In this document: positions 5,252 through 30,807 of the stretch, in pieces
Position numbering within the stretch: the stretch's first letter is position 1
How the letters are laid out: every line of letters starts with the position of its first letter
Origin: an uncultured Bacillota bacterium
GTDB taxonomy: Bacteria; Bacillota_I; Bacilli_A; ML615J-28; CAG-313
Length of the DNA stretch: 64,000 bases
Direction: 5' to 3'
Assembly: GCA_946611195.1 (NCBI GenBank)
Contig: CAMODB010000002.1
Location: 16,301-80,300 of the forward strand
Made by a program: the position numbers and the translations under genes
Notes under the pieces: model-generated
The model's input: only the letters and a program-made list of their open reading frames with translations
Told to the model about the DNA's origin: nothing
Databases searched by the model: none

Positions 5252-5794
5252 CTACCATGACCTTTTCCGGTTTCTTTCTCTTTTGATTTTATATAAAATA
5301 CGCTGTTTTGTATTAGATATCGTTCGTGATGATTGATTTAAAACAATAGAAATAGTCTTGACATTTATTTTCTTTATATAATAAAGATAATAAACATCCC
5401 GCTCTAAAGGTGAAAAATCATAACAATCTTCCGCAAGTTGTAATGTTTTATCTTCTTCATTATTATCAATTAAATTTTCATAATAATCATCATCAACTAC
5501 AATCATCTTTCTGTCTTTTCTAAGTAAGGTGATAAATCGACGCTTAATCAGCATATCTAAAAAATTAGTAAAAGACATTTGACTATCCGTATCATAAATC
5601 TTAATGGCTTCTTCGATCATTAACAAGCCTTCTTGTAAATAATCATCATATAAAGATTTAGGTACATTAAGTAATTTCATTCGCGAACGAACTAATATTG
5701 TATATTTTTCTATCAAAATGTTTTTCCCCTCTTGATTATTTTGTCTTGCTAAATACAATAGCTCATAATCATTATATTTAAACAAATCCCCCAC
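5252..5794 (-). CDS. sigH: SigH-like RNA polymerase sigma factor (sigma-70 family)
   Basis: 180 aa with region-2-like and region-4 HTH (KTISIVLNQSSRTISNTKQRI) segments. Sits between rlmB and rpmG-secE-nusG, the position of sigH in Bacillus. Confidence 0.7.
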   Translation of the reverse strand: MGDLFKYNDYELLYLARQNNQEGKNILIEKYTILVRSRMKLLNVPKSLYDDYLQEGLLMIEEAIKIYDTDSQMSFTNFLDMLIKRRFITLLRKDRKMIVVDDDYYENLIDNNEEDKTLQLAEDCYDFSPLERDVYYLYYIKKINVKTISIVLNQSSRTISNTKQRILYKIKRERNRKRSW

Positions 5795-20057: not shown

Positions 20058-21888
20058 TCTCTACTCTCCTTAATATTACGCCACTATTATATGGCAAATC
20101 TATTACTATTCTTCCATCACAATGAATAATAGTTCCTTCAAGATTCTTCGATCCTGAATATTTAACATCTTCACTACAAAGAATTATTTCATAATCACCA
20201 GGTTCCGCATTAAAACAATATCCTGGCCATTCACAATAAGCAAAATTAATAATTGCAATTAATTTATCATTTCCACATTTTCTGTTGTACGCAAAAACAC
20301 TATGCATTTTATCATCAACTACTAACCAAGAAAAACCATCCCAATAAGTAGTATCATCATAAAGTGCTGGGTGTTGCAAATATATTTTATTCAAATCACG
20401 AATATATTCATTTAATTTTTCATGTTTTTCATAGGCAAGAGAACTCCAATCGAGTTCTTTTTCTTCATTCCATTCATTAAATTGTCCGAACTCATAACCC
20501 ATAAAATTAAGTTTTTTGCCAGGATGCGTCATCATATAAGTTAAATAAGATTTCACACCCGCAAATTTTTGATCATATTGACCAGGCATCTTTTGTAAAA
20601 GACTCTTCTTTAAATGGACTACTTCATCATGACTTAAAGCTAAGATATAATGTTCAGAGAAAATATAAGTTAATTGGAAAGTTATTAAACCAAAATTATC
20701 GCCTCTAAACATTGGATCAGTTTCAATATAACGTAAAGTATCATTCATCCAACCCATATTCCATTTATAATCAAAGCCAAGACCACCTTCTTCTACCTTT
20801 TTAGTGATACCAGCAAAAGCAGTTGATTCTTCCGCAATCATCATAATAGAAGGATCAAATTCTTTAATTTTCGTATTGACTTTTTTTATAAAGGCTAAAG
20901 CTTCTAAATTGATATTATTACCATAGGCATTAGGTATCCATTCTCCAGCTTTTCTACCATAATCTAGATACAGCATTGATGATACCGCATCAACTCTTAA
21001 GCCATCAATATGGAATTTATCACACCAAAAGACAGCATTAGAAACTAAGAAGCTTTGAATTTCACATCTTCCATAATCAAAACATCTCGTTCCCCAATCT
21101 TTATTTTCTTTTCGGTATTCACTAGCTGGTTCATATAATGGACCACCATCAAAATCAATTAGACCATGTTCATCCTTCGTAAAATGACCAGGAACCCAAT
21201 CCATGATTACACCAATATTATTTTGATGCAGGATATCAACAAATTGTCTAAAATTATCTGGCGTACCATATCGCGATGTAACCGCATAATAACCTGTTAC
21301 CTGATAACCCCATGATGGATCATATGGATATTCCGAAAGTGGCATTATTTCCACATGAGTATAATTCATCTTCTTTACATAATCACAAAGTTCATGAGCC
21401 ATTTTCACATAATCAAAGGTATTACCATCTTGATAACGCCGCCATGAACCTAAATGAACTTCATAAATATTTAAAGGTTGATTGTATCTTTGTTTATTTA
21501 TTCGATTCTTCATCCATTCTTCATCATGAAAAACATAATTATTTAAATCGAATACTTTACTAGCTCTTTTGGGGCGTAATTCACTATGATAACCATAAGG
21601 ATCCGTTTTATAAATTAAACGTCCATCATATGTTGTTATCACATATTGATAAGTATCATATTCCTTAACGCCTTTAATTTTTACTTCCCACAAACCATTA
21701 TTGGTAATTCTTTCCATGGGATTTTTAAATAAATCCCAGTTATTAAAATCACCAATAACATTTACAAATTTAGCATTTGGAGCCCAAACACAGAATCTCG
21801 TATATTCTTTTTGGTAATGTGCTCCTAATAACTCATAAGCCTTACTAGTAGTACCTTGATGAAAATAGTAACAAGCTAACTCATCCAT
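20050..21888 (-). CDS. glgB: 1,4-alpha-glucan branching enzyme
   Basis: 612 aa of the GH13 family, with the DGLRVDAV and EES regions. Overlaps glgC by 8 nt. Confidence 0.96.
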
Positions 21889-27193: not shown

Positions 27194-27514
27194 TTACTCC
27201 ATTTCTTCGAGTTCTTTAATCAATTCTTTTCCTTCATCATCACAATGATTTTTAAGATTTTGATAGATTTTATCTCTCTGTAAATCTTTTTGATAAAGAC
27301 CAAGTTTATTTTCAAATTCTTCAAGACTATTTATTACTTTTTTTAAGGTATCCCAAACCGCATTACGGCTAATATGTAATTCATTAGCTATTTCTGCTAA
27401 GCTATAATCTTCATTATAATAATATATAAATAAATCTTGTTGTTTAGGGGTTAAAAGCTCACTATAATAAGCAAACAAGCAAGAATAGTAAGCCTTTTTT
27501 TCAATATCATTCAT
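27194..27514 (-). CDS. ylxM: YlxM/p13-like putative DNA-binding protein
   Basis: HTH segment YSLAEIANELHISRNAVWDTLKK, located upstream of ffh. Start chosen at MNDIEKK (ATG 27514), giving the ATGAATGA overlap with ftsY. The track ORF starts at 27529. Confidence 0.85.
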   Translation of the reverse strand: MNDIEKKAYYSCLFAYYSELLTPKQQDLFIYYYNEDYSLAEIANELHISRNAVWDTLKKVINSLEEFENKLGLYQKDLQRDKIYQNLKNHCDDEGKELIKELEEME

Positions 27515-28478
27515 CCTCTTCCTCATCAAATAAACTATTAATATAATTTTCTAAATCAAAATATTCTAGATCTTCCATCTTTTCACCAAGACCAACCATC
27601 TTGATCGGTAAATTATATTTATCTTTAATAGCTAGAACGATACCACCTTTACTAGTACCATCAAGCTTAGTTAAAATAACACCAGTAACATTAGTTACTT
27701 CCATAAAGGCTTCCGCTTGTGATAAACCATTTTGACCTGTTGTTGCGTCAATAACTAGTAAAGTTTCATGTGGAGCATTAGGTACTTCTCTTTCTATTAC
27801 TTTATTCATTTTCGCAAGTTCAGCCATTAAGCCTGCTTTATTTTGAAGTCTACCAGCAGTATCACAGAGAAGGACATCATATTTACCTTCTTTAGCTCTC
27901 TTTATCGCATCAAAGATTACACTAGATGGATCAGTAGCACCTTTTTTAATTACAATGTCTACCCCTACTCTTTTTGCCCATTCTTCTAATTGATCAACAG
28001 CTCCTGCTCTAAATGTATCACCGGCAGCTAATAATACTTTCTTACCTTCTTTTTTCAATCGATAAGCAATTTTTGCGATAGTAGTTGTTTTACCAACACC
28101 ATTAACACCAACAAATAAGAAAACACTTAAGCCTTCTTTTTGTACATTTAAGTTATTATTAACAATTTCACCTTTAAGATATAAATCAAACATCTTATCG
28201 ACAATGATTGGTTGAAGTTCACTAGCTGTTTTACAATCTTTTACTCTTTCATCACTTTTTAATTCTTCAATGAAATTAAGAGTAGTTTCAACCCCAACAT
28301 CAGCCATAATAAAGATATCGGTTAAATCATCAAATAAATCTTCGGTAACAGAATTGTAACCAGTTAAGACTTGTTTTAAACGACCTAATAAACCAGTTCT
28401 TGTTTTCTTTAATCCTAAATTATATTTTTTACTTTGTTCATTTTTTTCTTTTCTTTTACCAAAAAATAAAAAACCCAT
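27507..28478 (-). CDS. ftsY: Signal recognition particle receptor FtsY
   Basis: 323 aa with GVNGVGKTT and DTAGR motifs. TGA stop. Confidence 0.96.
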   Translation of the reverse strand: MGFLFFGKRKEKNEQSKKYNLGLKKTRTGLLGRLKQVLTGYNSVTEDLFDDLTDIFIMADVGVETTLNFIEELKSDERVKDCKTASELQPIIVDKMFDLYLKGEIVNNNLNVQKEGLSVFLFVGVNGVGKTTTIAKIAYRLKKEGKKVLLAAGDTFRAGAVDQLEEWAKRVGVDIVIKKGATDPSSVIFDAIKRAKEGKYDVLLCDTAGRLQNKAGLMAELAKMNKVIEREVPNAPHETLLVIDATTGQNGLSQAEAFMEVTNVTGVILTKLDGTSKGGIVLAIKDKYNLPIKMVGLGEKMEDLEYFDLENYINSLFDEEEDE

Positions 28479-28500: not shown

Positions 28501-28529
28501 ATTATACAATATTCTTCTTACTTTTTCAA
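28501..28529 (-). promoter_or_regulatory. Sigma-A promoter of ftsY-ylxM-ffh
   Basis: Minus strand TTGAAA (28529-28524), 17 nt, TATAAT (28506-28501). Confidence 0.6.
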
Positions 28530-28562: not shown

Positions 28563-28654
28563 TAAATAAAAAGTTAGGTGGAGGGGACCACCTAACTTAA
28601 GGGGGATGTGAGTTATTCACTCACTAAAGGGGATATGTGTAATCTTTCGATTAC
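28563..28654 (-). ncRNA. Candidate ~90-nt C-rich trans-acting sRNA (RsaE/RoxS-like architecture)
   Basis: Minus strand reads GTAATC-GAAA-GATTAC ACATATCCCCTTTA GTGAGT-GAATA-ACTCAC ATCCCCCTTA AGTTAGGTGG-TCCCCT-CCACCTAACT TTTTATTT. That is three hairpins, the last an intrinsic terminator, with CCCC motifs in both linkers and in the terminator loop. It has its own promoter (next feature). Confidence 0.5.
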
Positions 28655-28659
28655 GTTTT

Positions 28660-28688
28660 ATTTTATCATTATTTCGACTTTTTTTCAA
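28660..28688 (-). promoter_or_regulatory. Sigma-A promoter of the candidate sRNA
   Basis: Minus strand TTGAAA (28688-28683), 17 nt, TAAAAT (28665-28660), with extended -10 TGATAAAAT. Begins 5 nt after the topA stop codon. Confidence 0.55.
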
Positions 28689-28692
28689 ATAA

Positions 28693-30807
28693 TTAGTCTT
28701 TTTTTGCAGCAAGCTTTTTTAACGCAATAACCGTTTTACACTTTTCATTACCACAGCGTGTAGTACCATCTTTCATGGTAATCATAAAGCCACCACAAAC
28801 TTCACATTTTTCTCCATTAGGGATTCCAGAGAAAGTAGTTTTACATTTAGGATATCTATCACAGGCATAGAAGATGGATCCTTTAGTACGACCTCTAACA
28901 TTAATTCTTTCTACTAATTCTCCTTCACCACAAATTGGACATTTAACACCAGTACGAACTGGTTCAACTTTTGGTTTCTTTTTAATGAATTTACAATGTG
29001 GATAATCGGAACAAGCCGTAAATTCACCAAAAGGTCCTCGACGAATTACTAATGGACAACCACATTCTGGACAGAATTCATCTGTTTTCTTTGGATATAT
29101 TTTAACCATATTGTCTCTAGCATTTTCAATTAATGGTACAAATCGATCATAGAATTTACGAATTTCTTCATACCAAACTGCTTTGCCTTCCGCAATCAAG
29201 TCTAAAGTATTTTCCATTTTAGCAGTATATTCAACATTAATAATAGAACTAAAGAATAAATCCAATTGTTCACTTGTTAAAATACCTTGTTCAGTTGGTA
29301 CAAAAGCCCGATGATCCATCACCGCATAAGCTCTAAGTCTTAAAGTTTCCATTGTTAAGGCATATGTTGAAGGACGACCAATACCTAATTCTTCCATTTT
29401 CTTAATTAATCTTGCTTCAGTATAACGATATGGAGGAAGCGTGAATTTTTGTTCCATCTTAATATCTTCTTTAATTAAAGTTTCACCAATATTCATTTCT
29501 GGTAAAATATTTAATTCTTCTTCGGGACTAGCTTCGATGCTTGTTTCTTCATATACTTTTAAGAAGCCATCATAAATAGTAATTTCCCCATTAACATTAA
29601 AAATGTAGCCATTATTATTAATATCAATTTTAGTATCTTCAACAACCGCATCAGCCATAAGAGAAGATAAGGCCCGATTATAAATTAATGAATAAATTTT
29701 ATAATCTTCTAAAGATAAATATTTTTTAATACTTTCTGGTGTTCTTCTAATATCTGTAGGTCTGATTGCTTCATGGGCATCTTGAACATTCTTCGTTTTA
29801 CTACTTTTTTTAACACCTTTATAATAATCTTTACCAAAATTATTAACAATATAATTTTTAGCATTTTCCACAAATTCATCGCTTAGACGAATCGAATCGG
29901 TACGCATATAAGTAATTAAACCAACCCGTTCATCACCTAATTCCACACCTTCATATAATTTTTGTGCAATACCCATTACTCTTTTCGCATTATAATTGAA
30001 TTTTGCGGAAGCATCTTGTTGAAGCGTTGAAGTAATAAATGGTGGTTTAGAACTACGTGAACGTCTCTTTTTAACAACATCGGTAATAACATAATCACTA
30101 TTTAATGAATCCACTATTTTTTTCGCTTCTTCTTCATTTTTAACATCGATTTTATTACCATTATAACTATTCAATTTTGCTTTAAAATGATATTCACCTT
30201 TATCAGTTTCTTTAACTAAGAAAGCATTAATATCCCAATATTCACTACTATCAAAAGCTTTAATTTCTTTTTCTCTATCAACTACTAATTTTAATGCTAC
30301 GCTTTGAACACGACCAGCTGATTTAGAACCAAGTTTTTGCTGCATCAAGCTTGATAAGCGGAACCCTATAATACGGTCTAAGATTCTTCTTGATTCTTGA
30401 GAATGCACTAAATTCATATCAACTTGGCGATCATTGCCAATAGCTTTTAGAATTGCTCCTTTAGTAATTTCATTGAAGACAATTCTTGATACTTTTTTAT
30501 TAGGTTGTTCTAACACTTCTTTTAAGTGCCAACTAATAGCTTCTCCTTCTCTATCGGGGTCGGTCGCAAGATAAATATGATCAGCTTTTCTAGCTAAAGC
30601 TTTTAGATGTTCTACAATTTCTACTTTATCTTTTAATATTACATATTCAGGCGCAAAGTTGTTATTAATATCAACTCCAAAACCACCTTTTCCTTTGATA
30701 CTTAAATCTCTAATATGACCAATACTAGATTCTACTTGATAATCACTGCCTAAATAATTACCAATAGTTTTACATTTTGCAGGTGATTCTACAATAACTA
30801 AATTCAT
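28693..30807 (-). CDS. topA: DNA topoisomerase I
   Basis: 704 aa with a TOPRIM domain (LVIVESPAKCKTI), the active-site region, and C-terminal CxxC zinc ribbons. Confidence 0.97.
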   Translation of the reverse strand: MNLVIVESPAKCKTIGNYLGSDYQVESSIGHIRDLSIKGKGGFGVDINNNFAPEYVILKDKVEIVEHLKALARKADHIYLATDPDREGEAISWHLKEVLEQPNKKVSRIVFNEITKGAILKAIGNDRQVDMNLVHSQESRRILDRIIGFRLSSLMQQKLGSKSAGRVQSVALKLVVDREKEIKAFDSSEYWDINAFLVKETDKGEYHFKAKLNSYNGNKIDVKNEEEAKKIVDSLNSDYVITDVVKKRRSRSSKPPFITSTLQQDASAKFNYNAKRVMGIAQKLYEGVELGDERVGLITYMRTDSIRLSDEFVENAKNYIVNNFGKDYYKGVKKSSKTKNVQDAHEAIRPTDIRRTPESIKKYLSLEDYKIYSLIYNRALSSLMADAVVEDTKIDINNNGYIFNVNGEITIYDGFLKVYEETSIEASPEEELNILPEMNIGETLIKEDIKMEQKFTLPPYRYTEARLIKKMEELGIGRPSTYALTMETLRLRAYAVMDHRAFVPTEQGILTSEQLDLFFSSIINVEYTAKMENTLDLIAEGKAVWYEEIRKFYDRFVPLIENARDNMVKIYPKKTDEFCPECGCPLVIRRGPFGEFTACSDYPHCKFIKKKPKVEPVRTGVKCPICGEGELVERINVRGRTKGSIFYACDRYPKCKTTFSGIPNGEKCEVCGGFMITMKDGTTRCGNEKCKTVIALKKLAAKKD

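What the first reader, a model, noticed from the sequence alone, without database searches (positions are those of the whole stretch)
28563..28688. Independent ~90-nt sRNA gene with three CCCC motifs (RsaE/RoxS-like) between topA and ftsY
What the sequence shows:
- The 214-bp topA-ftsY spacer holds a near-consensus promoter: TTGAAA, 17 nt, and extended -10 TGATAAAAT.
- Next comes a GNRA-capped hairpin (GTAATC-GAAA-GATTAC), then the linker ACATATCCCCTTTA.
- A second hairpin (GTGAGT-GAATA-ACTCAC) follows, then the linker ATCCCCCTTA.
- A strong terminator closes the unit: AGTTAGGTGG-TCCCCT-CCACCTAACT followed by TTTTTATTT.

Interpretation:
- Unpaired CCCC(U) motifs in linkers and in the terminator loop are the hallmark of RsaE/RoxS. 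These sRNAs pair with Shine-Dalgarno G-tracts of central-metabolism mRNAs in Bacillales.
- The motif context (CAUAUCCCCUUU) resembles the RsaE repeat as I recall it.
- A separate ftsY promoter lies downstream, so the element is not simply a 5' UTR.
Basis: partly seen in the sequence, partly recalled or inferred. Interest (0 to 1): 0.6.

Follow-up and report, generated by a model that had tools for sequence, protein, structure and literature searches.

The report
C-rich small RNA gene after topA
The gap between the topoisomerase I and ftsY genes holds a self-contained gene for a regulatory RNA of about 90 nt. Its exposed CCCC motifs probably block ribosome-binding sites, and it belongs to an uncatalogued family shared by uncultured gut bacteria and Acholeplasma-like relatives, not to RsaE/RoxS.

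Summary
The unit lies on the minus strand at 28688-28564. It has a promoter, three hairpins, two unpaired C-rich linkers, a C-rich terminator loop and a T-run.

It is a real conserved RNA gene.
- A covariance model finds one copy per genome in 38 of 48 species of the same family, and copies in parts of three further families.
- All 20 modelled base pairs show compensatory changes (92-94% paired, against 54-58% in shuffles).
- 61 of 64 copies keep their own sigma-A-type promoter.
- The 12-nt linker ACAUAUCCCCUA is nearly invariant.
- topA lies directly upstream in two deeply diverged families.

It is not RsaE/RoxS or LhrC. Rfam scores are 25 bits (threshold 79) and 27 bits (threshold 110), the architecture differs, and no Rfam family matches.

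The best reading is an Hfq-independent, trans-acting anti-Shine-Dalgarno sRNA of a new family.

A weaker lead ties it to sporulation. Relatives carry Spo0A-box-like TGTCGAA motifs at the promoter, and the GGGGG-type ribosome-binding site of spo0A is complementary to the conserved linker. However, that G-rich site also occurs in families without the RNA.

Earlier notes of this scan describe the same family on other genomes.

The parts
28683..28688 (-). -35 box TTGAAA of the sRNA promoter, 4 nt after the topA stop codon
   Evidence: An equivalent box is present in 61 of 64 family copies.
28660..28668 (-). Extended -10 element TGATAAAAT
   Evidence: 10 of 12 matches, TG present. An extended -10 is present in 47 of 64 copies.
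28673..28679 (-). AGTCGAA in the promoter spacer, a one-mismatch version of the TGTCGAA box seen in relatives (Spo0A-box-like)
   Evidence: The assignment to Spo0A is an inference.
28639..28654 (-). 5' hairpin 1 (GUAAUC-GAAA-GAUUAC); predicted 5' end near G28654
   Evidence: Fold. All 5 modelled pairs covary. The 5' end is inferred from the distance to the -10 box, not measured.
28625..28638 (-). Unpaired C-rich region 1, ACAUAUCCCCUUUA, the most conserved segment and the likely seed
   Evidence: Unpaired in the fold. ACaTATCCCCTAcA is at least 90% conserved across 46 copies.
28608..28624 (-). Hairpin 2 (GUGAGU-GAAUA-ACUCAC)
   Evidence: The stem varies in sequence and length but is kept by covariation.
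28598..28607 (-). Unpaired C-rich region 2, AUCCCCCUUA (CCCUUCCU in most relatives)
28564..28597 (-). Intrinsic terminator with the C-rich loop UCCCCU (C-rich region 3) and a T-run; it also ends topA transcripts
   Evidence: 11 pairs, loop of 6. All 10 modelled pairs covary. There is no terminator between the topA stop codon and the sRNA promoter.
28693..30807 (-). topA (704 aa), the conserved upstream neighbour
   Evidence: Pfam hits Topoisom_bac, Toprim and Zn_ribbon_Top1. Synteny is shown.
28501..28529 (-). Separate ftsY promoter, TTGAAA-17-TATAAT
   Evidence: 11 of 12 matches.
27507..28478 (-). ftsY (323 aa), the downstream neighbour
   Evidence: Pfam hits SRP54 and SRP54_N. Its translation start region does not pair with the sRNA.

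Best explanation
This is the gene for a trans-acting regulatory RNA of about 87-90 nt that works without Hfq.

It is transcribed from its own sigma-A-type promoter. Because topA has no terminator of its own, the same sequence is also the 3' end of topA transcripts. Transcription ends at the strong intrinsic terminator.

Hairpin 1 at the very 5' end and the terminator hairpin frame the molecule. Two single-stranded linkers, ACAUAUCCCCUUUA and AUCCCCCUUA, and the terminator loop UCCCCU are left exposed.

These C-rich segments pair with G-rich (GGGG-type) Shine-Dalgarno regions of a small set of mRNAs. That pairing blocks 30S binding and probably exposes the mRNA to RNases, as shown for RsaE/RoxS and LhrC.

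It is a member of an uncatalogued sRNA family. The family is conserved directly downstream of topA in this family of uncultured gut and rumen Mollicutes-like Bacilli and in a second, deeply diverged family.

Shown: the gene anatomy, conservation, covariation, synteny, and absence from Rfam. Inferred: transcription, trans action, and the identity of the targets.
For: Anatomy and fold:
- The promoter, three hairpins and terminator are at the stated coordinates, with fold z = -7.8.

Conservation:
- Covariance models built here find one copy in 38 of 48 species of the family and in 21 of 57 of the sister family.
- In the class sample they find it in 9 of 11 and 8 of 9 genomes of two further families. 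In the phylum sample the figures are 14 of 16 and 6 of 6, against 0 of 39 and 0 of 43 in the mycoplasma-sized families.

Covariation:
- 94.1% of cells are paired, against 58% in shuffles and 32-49% when the partners are slid. All 20 pairs show double changes.
- On 46 copies the figure is 92.0% against 53.7%.

Seed-like conservation:
- The unpaired ACaUAUCCCCUAcA is the most conserved segment, while the stems vary freely.

Independent gene:
- 61 of 64 copies have a -35/-10 pair at the right distance.
- The gene sits at other loci in two families and is tandemly triplicated in one genus.
- Some relatives have the topA-ftsY spacer without it.
- ftsY has its own promoter.

Synteny:
- The order topA-sRNA-ftsY-ylxM holds through the family. 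topA is also directly upstream in the diverged second family, where TopA is 43-49% identical.

Hfq:
- No Hfq was found in 5 near-complete relatives, while the controls gave hits.

Target type:
- GGGG-containing ribosome-binding sites are rare, 31 of 853 predicted start regions. They top the duplex ranking.

Mechanistic precedent:
- RoxS C-rich regions pair with Shine-Dalgarno sequences (PMC4409812).
Against: - There is no expression evidence.
- The organism is an uncultured metagenome-assembled genome, only 65% complete.
- Targets are predictions on home-made gene calls. C-rich against G-rich pairing is generic.
- A 12-nt invariant linker could equally be a protein-binding site.
- No compensatory sRNA-target changes were demonstrated.
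- The covariation counts were made on alignments fitted to the model, which leans them towards the structure. The slid-partner controls still argue strongly for it.
Confidence: 0.7

Rival explanations
1. It is a true, diverged orthologue of RsaE/RoxS. On this view it regulates central-metabolism and redox genes under ResDE/SrrAB- or Rex-type control.
For: - RsaE is one of the two best, though weak, Rfam hits: 25.1 bits, E = 0.04 in a 401-nt search.
- The two share AUCCCCUUU, unpaired C-rich regions and a terminator.
- RsaE is known to be conserved between Bacillus and Staphylococcus (PMC4409812).
Against: - The score is far below the gathering score of 79.
- 0 of 31 relatives pass the cut-off, while the Bacillus subtilis control does.
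- The orthologous RNAs of most relatives give no RsaE hit at E <= 1 or E <= 0.1.
- The Rfam alignment needs a 34-nt deletion and a 17-nt insertion.
- There is no C-rich hairpin loop at the 5' end and no CCCCUUUGUU duplication.
- LhrC scores equally well at 27.4 bits, so the signal reflects the motif class and not ancestry.
Confidence: 0.06
2. It is only a cis element: the topA 3' UTR and terminator, or a transcription-attenuating leader of ftsY, with no trans function.
For: - topA has no other terminator, so its transcripts must end at this hairpin.
- The position between topA and ftsY is conserved in two families.
Against: - A plain terminator needs neither a conserved promoter (61 of 64 copies), nor two extra covarying hairpins, nor invariant unpaired C-rich linkers.
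- Relatives that lack the element have a simple terminator there.
- ftsY has its own near-consensus promoter downstream of the terminator.
- In two other families the gene lies away from both topA and ftsY, and it can be triplicated.
Confidence: 0.07
3. It is a protein-binding or sponge RNA. The invariant ACAUAUCCCCUA and CCCUUCC segments would be bound by a C-rich-specific RNA-binding protein (for example a KH-domain protein) or by another G-rich RNA, rather than by mRNA ribosome-binding sites.
For: - The linker is conserved over 12 nt across families that differ in gene content. That is longer than an anti-Shine-Dalgarno seed needs.
- No universal mRNA target was identified.
- The RNA persists in families with and without Spo0A.
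Against: - No candidate partner was identified.
- Seed regions of base-pairing sRNAs are typically the most conserved part.
- The motif is the complement of a G-rich Shine-Dalgarno sequence plus flanks, and real start regions complementary to it exist.
Confidence: 0.1

Closest known systems
RsaE / RoxS (Rfam RF01820; Staphylococcaceae, Bacillaceae)
   Same: - It is a stand-alone sRNA of about 90-110 nt with its own promoter and terminator.
- It has several unpaired C-rich regions that pair with G-rich Shine-Dalgarno sequences.
- From memory (not checked here), its action does not depend on Hfq.
- It shares a local AUCCCCUUU match with this window.
   Different: - This RNA scores 25 bits against a threshold of 79.
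- Here both main C-rich regions are in linkers between hairpins, and hairpin 1 carries no C-rich loop.
- There is no CCCCUUUGUU duplication.
- The genomic context differs: this RNA lies after topA.
- No ResDE- or Rex-type control is evident.
- The lineage differs: Mollicutes-like Bacilli.
LhrC family (Rfam RF00616; Listeria)
   Same: - It has three C-rich motifs, one of them in the terminator loop and one in a single-stranded stretch.
- It acts on ribosome-binding sites.
- Multi-copy tandem arrays exist, and one genus here has three tandem copies.
   Different: - This RNA scores 27 bits against a threshold of 110.
- LhrC's first motif is in a hairpin loop.
- This RNA is single-copy in its own family.
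SpoY (Clostridioides difficile sRNA that represses spo0A translation; PMC10267692)
   Same: This is a possible functional analogue. SpoY is an sRNA that pairs with the spo0A mRNA leader and lowers Spo0A synthesis. Here the conserved linker is complementary to the spo0A ribosome-binding site in most genera of the family.
   Different: - There is no evidence of sequence relationship.
- SpoY is associated with Hfq, and these genomes lack Hfq.
- The link here is only predicted, and the RNA family also exists in families without spo0A.
Other C-rich Firmicute sRNAs (FsrA and CsfG of B. subtilis; the Rsa family of S. aureus)
   Same: They have C-rich regions in predicted single-stranded segments (PMC4409812). 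CsfG is tied to sporulation.
   Different: - From memory, CsfG is driven by forespore sigma factors. This RNA has a sigma-A-type promoter.
- No sequence or model match was seen in Rfam searches at E <= 10.

Membership tests
RsaE/RoxS (RF01820) | Covariance-model score at or above Rfam's gathering score (79 bits) | tested here: not met
   The window scores 25.1 bits. 0 of 31 relatives pass the cut-off, while the Bacillus subtilis control does.
RsaE/RoxS (RF01820) | Architecture: a 5' stem enclosing a C-rich loop, then duplicated CCCCUUUGUU motifs, then a terminator (PMC4409812) | tested here: not met
   Hairpin 1 has a GAAA loop and no C-rich motif. There is one CCCCUUUAG here and CCCCUACA or CCCCUAUA in relatives. 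The Rfam alignment needs large indels.
RsaE/RoxS (RF01820) | Unpaired C-rich regions able to pair with Shine-Dalgarno sequences | tested here: met
   Two CCCC linkers and the CCCC terminator loop are unpaired in the minimum-free-energy and consensus structures.
RsaE/RoxS (RF01820) | Control by ResDE/SrrAB or Rex, and central-metabolism targets | not tested
   No operator search for these regulators was made. The top predicted targets are not TCA or folate genes.
LhrC (RF00616) | Covariance-model score at or above the gathering score (110 bits) | tested here: not met
   27.4 bits.
C-rich anti-Shine-Dalgarno sRNA class of Firmicutes (functional class, not a homology family) | Independent transcription unit: own promoter, intrinsic terminator, no ORF | tested here: met
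   The promoter is kept in 61 of 64 copies. This is sequence-level evidence only.
C-rich anti-Shine-Dalgarno sRNA class of Firmicutes (functional class, not a homology family) | A discrete small transcript is made | not testable with these tools
The organism is uncultured.
C-rich anti-Shine-Dalgarno sRNA class of Firmicutes (functional class, not a homology family) | Base pairing with the ribosome-binding sites of target mRNAs | tested here: inconclusive
   Strong predicted duplexes of -15 to -17 kcal/mol form with GGGG-type start regions, against a background of -6.9 +/- 2.5. The spo0A site recurs across genera. The G-rich spo0A site also exists where the sRNA is absent.
topA-downstream C-rich sRNA family (defined here; not in Rfam 15) | Match to the family covariance model: three hairpins with the ACAUAUCCCCUA linker | tested here: met
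   67.6-73.1 bits, E = 5e-12 to 4e-13, and a single copy in the genome. By construction this window is among the seed sequences. Independent members score 40-93 bits.
topA-downstream C-rich sRNA family (defined here; not in Rfam 15) | Location directly 3' of topA | tested here: met

The most novel reading that the evidence does not exclude
In this family of small-genome, Spo0A-bearing gut bacteria, the sRNA may have been wired into the decision to sporulate.

The proposed loop has two halves:
- Its promoter carries Spo0A-box-like TGTCGAA or TGTAGAA motifs.
- Its invariant linker pairs with the GGGGG-type ribosome-binding site of spo0A, and possibly with that of the SigH-like sigma factor.

Together these would form a Spo0A-sRNA feedback loop that sets Spo0A synthesis.

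The loop could matter most in the window's own genus. There Spo0A has lost the phospho-acceptor aspartate and so cannot be controlled by a phosphorelay.
Probability: 0.25. Interest if true: 0.7.

Novelty: new member of a known kind. Interest (0 to 1): 0.45.

Why it matters
Base-pairing sRNAs are almost unexplored in the Mollicutes-like branch of the Firmicutes and in uncultured gut and rumen lineages.

This is a clean new family. It is supported by covariation, absent from Rfam, and traceable by its position after topA. It appears to include cultured relatives, so it can be tested at the bench.

It extends the C-rich anti-Shine-Dalgarno strategy, known from Bacillus, Staphylococcus and Listeria, to Hfq-less reduced genomes.

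If the Spo0A link holds, it would be a second, independent case of sRNA control of the sporulation master regulator, after SpoY/SpoX of C. difficile. It would occur in organisms whose Spo0A seems to have escaped phosphorelay control.

Tried and rejected
- **BLAST of the whole spacer against relatives.** Most hits were AT-rich promoter noise. Only four hits touched the RNA body, and those seeded the family.
- **MAFFT alignment of 17 copies.** The hairpins were misaligned, so it was replaced by iterative covariance-model alignment.
- **Rfam.** Nothing reached gathering thresholds, and nothing relevant appeared at E <= 0.1 on 11 homologous loci.
- **Literature.** I found no description of this RNA. 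The Mollicutes promoter-mapping paper (PMC5138195) does not mention it.
- **topA, ftsY, ylxM, ffh, rnhB and ylqF as targets.** For five of the six, the start regions pair poorly with all three C-rich regions (ranks 368-831 of 853). The exception is ylxM, which ranks 41 with C-rich region 2.
- **Spo0A as the universal partner.** Rejected. The RNA is common in two families with no Spo0A (0 of 11 and 0 of 9). It is rare in three families that all have Spo0A.
- **Co-evolution of the spo0A G-rich ribosome-binding site with the sRNA.** Rejected. The AGGGGG site is also present in families without the sRNA.
- **Coding potential.** There is no ORF on the RNA strand. The 40-codon plus-strand ORF at 28608-28730 merely overlaps it.

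Full report
**Observation**

The element is on the minus strand.
- topA (704 aa; Pfam Topoisom_bac, Toprim and zinc ribbons) ends at 28695-28693. ftsY (323 aa, SRP54 family) starts at 28478. ylxM and ffh follow.
- Four nucleotides after the topA stop codon comes TTGAAA (28688-28683), then 17 nt, then TGATAAAAT (28668-28660).
- The RNA body follows:
  - GUAAUC-GAAA-GAUUAC, 28654-28639
  - ACAUAUCCCCUUUA, 28638-28625
  - GUGAGU-GAAUA-ACUCAC, 28624-28608
  - AUCCCCCUUA, 28607-28598
  - the terminator AGUUAGGUGG-UCCCCU-CCACCUAACU, 28597-28572, and its T-run
- A second promoter, TTGAAA-17-TATAAT (28529-28501), serves ftsY.
- The minimum-free-energy fold is exactly the three hairpins, with both linkers unpaired. 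Its energy is -31.0 kcal/mol against -10.7 +/- 2.6 for shuffles (z = -7.8).
- Only three loci in the 0.98-Mb assembly carry three CCCC runs within 70 nt.

**Is it a known RNA?**

- At Rfam gathering thresholds the window holds only an FMN riboswitch and an L10 leader.
- A permissive scan of the spacer gives LhrC at 27.4 bits (threshold 110) and RsaE at 25.1 bits (threshold 79). Both hits rest on the C-rich stretch and the terminator, with large indels.
- RF01820 run over 31 related genomes passes its cut-off in none, while the Bacillus subtilis control passes. The orthologous RNAs of most relatives do not appear at all.
- Eleven homologous loci gave nothing relevant at E <= 0.1.

**Conservation**

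- The window is contig C2:16301-80300 of a 65%-complete assembly of 0.98 Mb with about 30% G+C.
- The 11-mer ACATATCCCCT occurs in 58 of 106 genomes of the order. There were 88 hits, against about 10 for the reversed control.
- The intergenic hits show the same layout: promoter, hairpin, ACAUAUCCCCU, hairpin, (U)CCCUUCCU, and a terminator that often has a C-rich loop. The stem sequences differ.
- I built a seed model and realigned the candidates.
  - On 34 copies, 94.1% of cells pair, against 58.0% in column shuffles and 32-49% when partners are slid by 1-3 columns. All 20 pairs show changes on both sides.
  - On 46 copies from four families, 92.0% pair against 53.7%.
- The second model finds exactly one copy in 38 of 48 species of the family and copies in 21 of 57 of the sister family. 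One genus has three tandem copies.
- The third model finds the RNA in two further families.
  - In the class sample these were 9 of 11 and 8 of 9 genomes, with 2-3 copies in the latter.
  - In the phylum sample they were 14 of 16 and 6 of 6, with none in 39 and 43 genomes of the mycoplasma-sized families.
- The consensus keeps ACaUAUCCCCUAcA at 90% or more, while the stems vary.
- 61 of 64 copies have a -35/-10 pair at the right distance, and 47 have an extended -10.

**Context**

- In the window's family the order topA-sRNA-ftsY-ylxM is almost universal.
- In one of the distant families (TopA 43-49% identical) topA is again directly upstream, with ftsY a little further downstream.
- In the other two families the gene lies elsewhere.
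- Several relatives have a topA-ftsY spacer with only a plain terminator and the ftsY promoter.

So it is an autonomous gene with an old address, not an ftsY leader. Because topA has no terminator of its own here, topA transcripts must also end at the sRNA terminator. The RNA could therefore also arise by 3'-UTR processing. This is an inference.

**Who carries it**

- Public records with the closest FtsY are labelled:
  - 'uncultured Firmicutes bacterium RUG293' (91% identity)
  - 'Staphylococcus sp. CAG:324'
  - 'uncultured Mollicutes bacterium UMGS116/UMGS75'
  - 'Bacilli bacterium' assemblies from rumen, hindgut and human gut
- 22 of these loci carry the RNA just upstream of ftsY. Loci with FtsY at or below about 69% identity do not.
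- Earlier notes of this scan describe the same family after topA in other gut Bacilli and in Acholeplasma laidlawii. I confirmed a topA-linked family of complete 1.1-1.8-Mb genomes but could not name it.

**Mechanism**

- The anatomy is that of the C-rich anti-Shine-Dalgarno sRNAs. These include RoxS/RsaE, whose C-rich regions block 30S binding (PMC4409812), and LhrC.
- No Hfq was found in five near-complete relatives, while the controls gave hits.
- I made rough gene calls on the assembly, giving 853 start regions.
  - Duplexes with C-rich region 1 average -6.9 +/- 2.5 kcal/mol.
  - The best are -15 to -17 kcal/mol and belong to GGGG-type ribosome-binding sites. Only 31 of the 853 start regions contain GGGG.
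- The top candidates are:
  - an SSB paralogue
  - a Y_phosphatase3 protein
  - several unknown proteins
  - spo0A (rank 4)
  - a divergent SigH-like sigma factor at window 5252-5794
- The neighbours topA and ftsY do not pair.

**The sporulation lead**

Evidence in favour:
- Spo0A is present in the assembly and in 42 of 48 species of the family.
- Upstream of the sRNA, 13 of 38 family copies carry TGTCGAA and 10 carry TGTAGAA. The expected number is about 0.005-0.008 per copy.
  - The boxes lie either in the promoter spacer or 57-73 nt upstream of the modelled 5' end of the RNA.
  - None of 27 copies from the other three families has one. Two of those families lack Spo0A.
- TGTCGAA is the Spo0A box of Bacillus. 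This is from memory.
- Of only 12 intergenic TGTCGAA in this assembly, two lie upstream of spo0A itself.
- The spo0A start regions of 20 family members were paired with their own sRNA linker. They fall at a median 0.6% tail of the background.
- An unbiased search for GGGGATAT followed by ATG in five genomes gave 28 hits against 12 for the control. spo0A was the only gene that recurred, in 4 of 5 genomes.
- Eleven more genomes show GGGGG flanked by AUAU or UGUA, matching the flanks of the linker.

Evidence against:
- The window's own box is imperfect (AGTCGAA), and its nearest relative has none.
- Two genera have spo0A sites that do not match.
- spo0A has an AGGGGG(AU) site also in four families where the sRNA is absent or rare. 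The G-rich site is therefore ancestral and not co-evolved.
- The RNA thrives in Spo0A-less families.

I therefore treat the Spo0A loop as a lineage-specific possibility with a probability of about 0.25, not as the function of the family.

**Verdict**

- The class assignment (C-rich, ribosome-binding-site-targeting sRNA) is well supported by anatomy and conservation, though not by experiment.
- Membership in RsaE/RoxS or LhrC is rejected.
- This is a new family of a known kind, already met by this scan on other genomes.

Noticed in passing
L195 1501-2283 (G000:C19:20987-21769), and loci L196-L204: In the window's genus (nine species), Spo0A lacks the phospho-acceptor aspartate. The position of B. 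subtilis D56 is S, T, C or N, and the N-terminal acidic pair is also altered. Other genera of the family keep the aspartate. This suggests a Spo0A that does not depend on phosphorylation.
   Followed up: partly
L195 1337-1343 and 1375-1381 (G000:C19:20823-20829 and 20861-20867): Two of the only 12 intergenic TGTCGAA motifs of the assembly lie 164 and 126 nt upstream of spo0A, in opposite orientations. This resembles the autoregulatory 0A boxes of Bacillus.
   Followed up: partly
window 5252-5794 (-): A divergent 181-aa sigma factor sits in the sigH position, after an rlmB-like gene and before secE-nusG. Its best NCBIfam hit is SigH, but at 44 bits against a cut-off of 295. It has a GGGG-type ribosome-binding site that is also complementary to the sRNA linker in several relatives.
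   Followed up: partly
L102 1496-1985 and L103 1481-1973: In one genus of the sister family the sRNA gene is triplicated in tandem. Each copy has its own promoter and terminator, recalling the LhrC1-4 array of Listeria.
   Followed up: partly
L109 1447-1532: A congener has a decayed copy of the sRNA. Only C-rich region 1 is kept, and G+C is 22%. The only spo0A match in that genome is weak and partial (residues 138-248 of 260, 140-aa open frame; 69% complete assembly).
   Followed up: no
G000:C1:52834-52935 (outside the window): An intergenic array holds four tandem ~33-nt units, each containing CCCCCCGATTTTATTCCTTTTTT. It is one of only three loci in the assembly with clustered CCCC runs. Its function is unknown.
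   Followed up: no
window 28608-28730 (+): A 40-codon GTG ORF lies on the opposite strand, overlapping the sRNA and the topA end. It is an artefact of the ORF listing and not a gene.
   Followed up: yes
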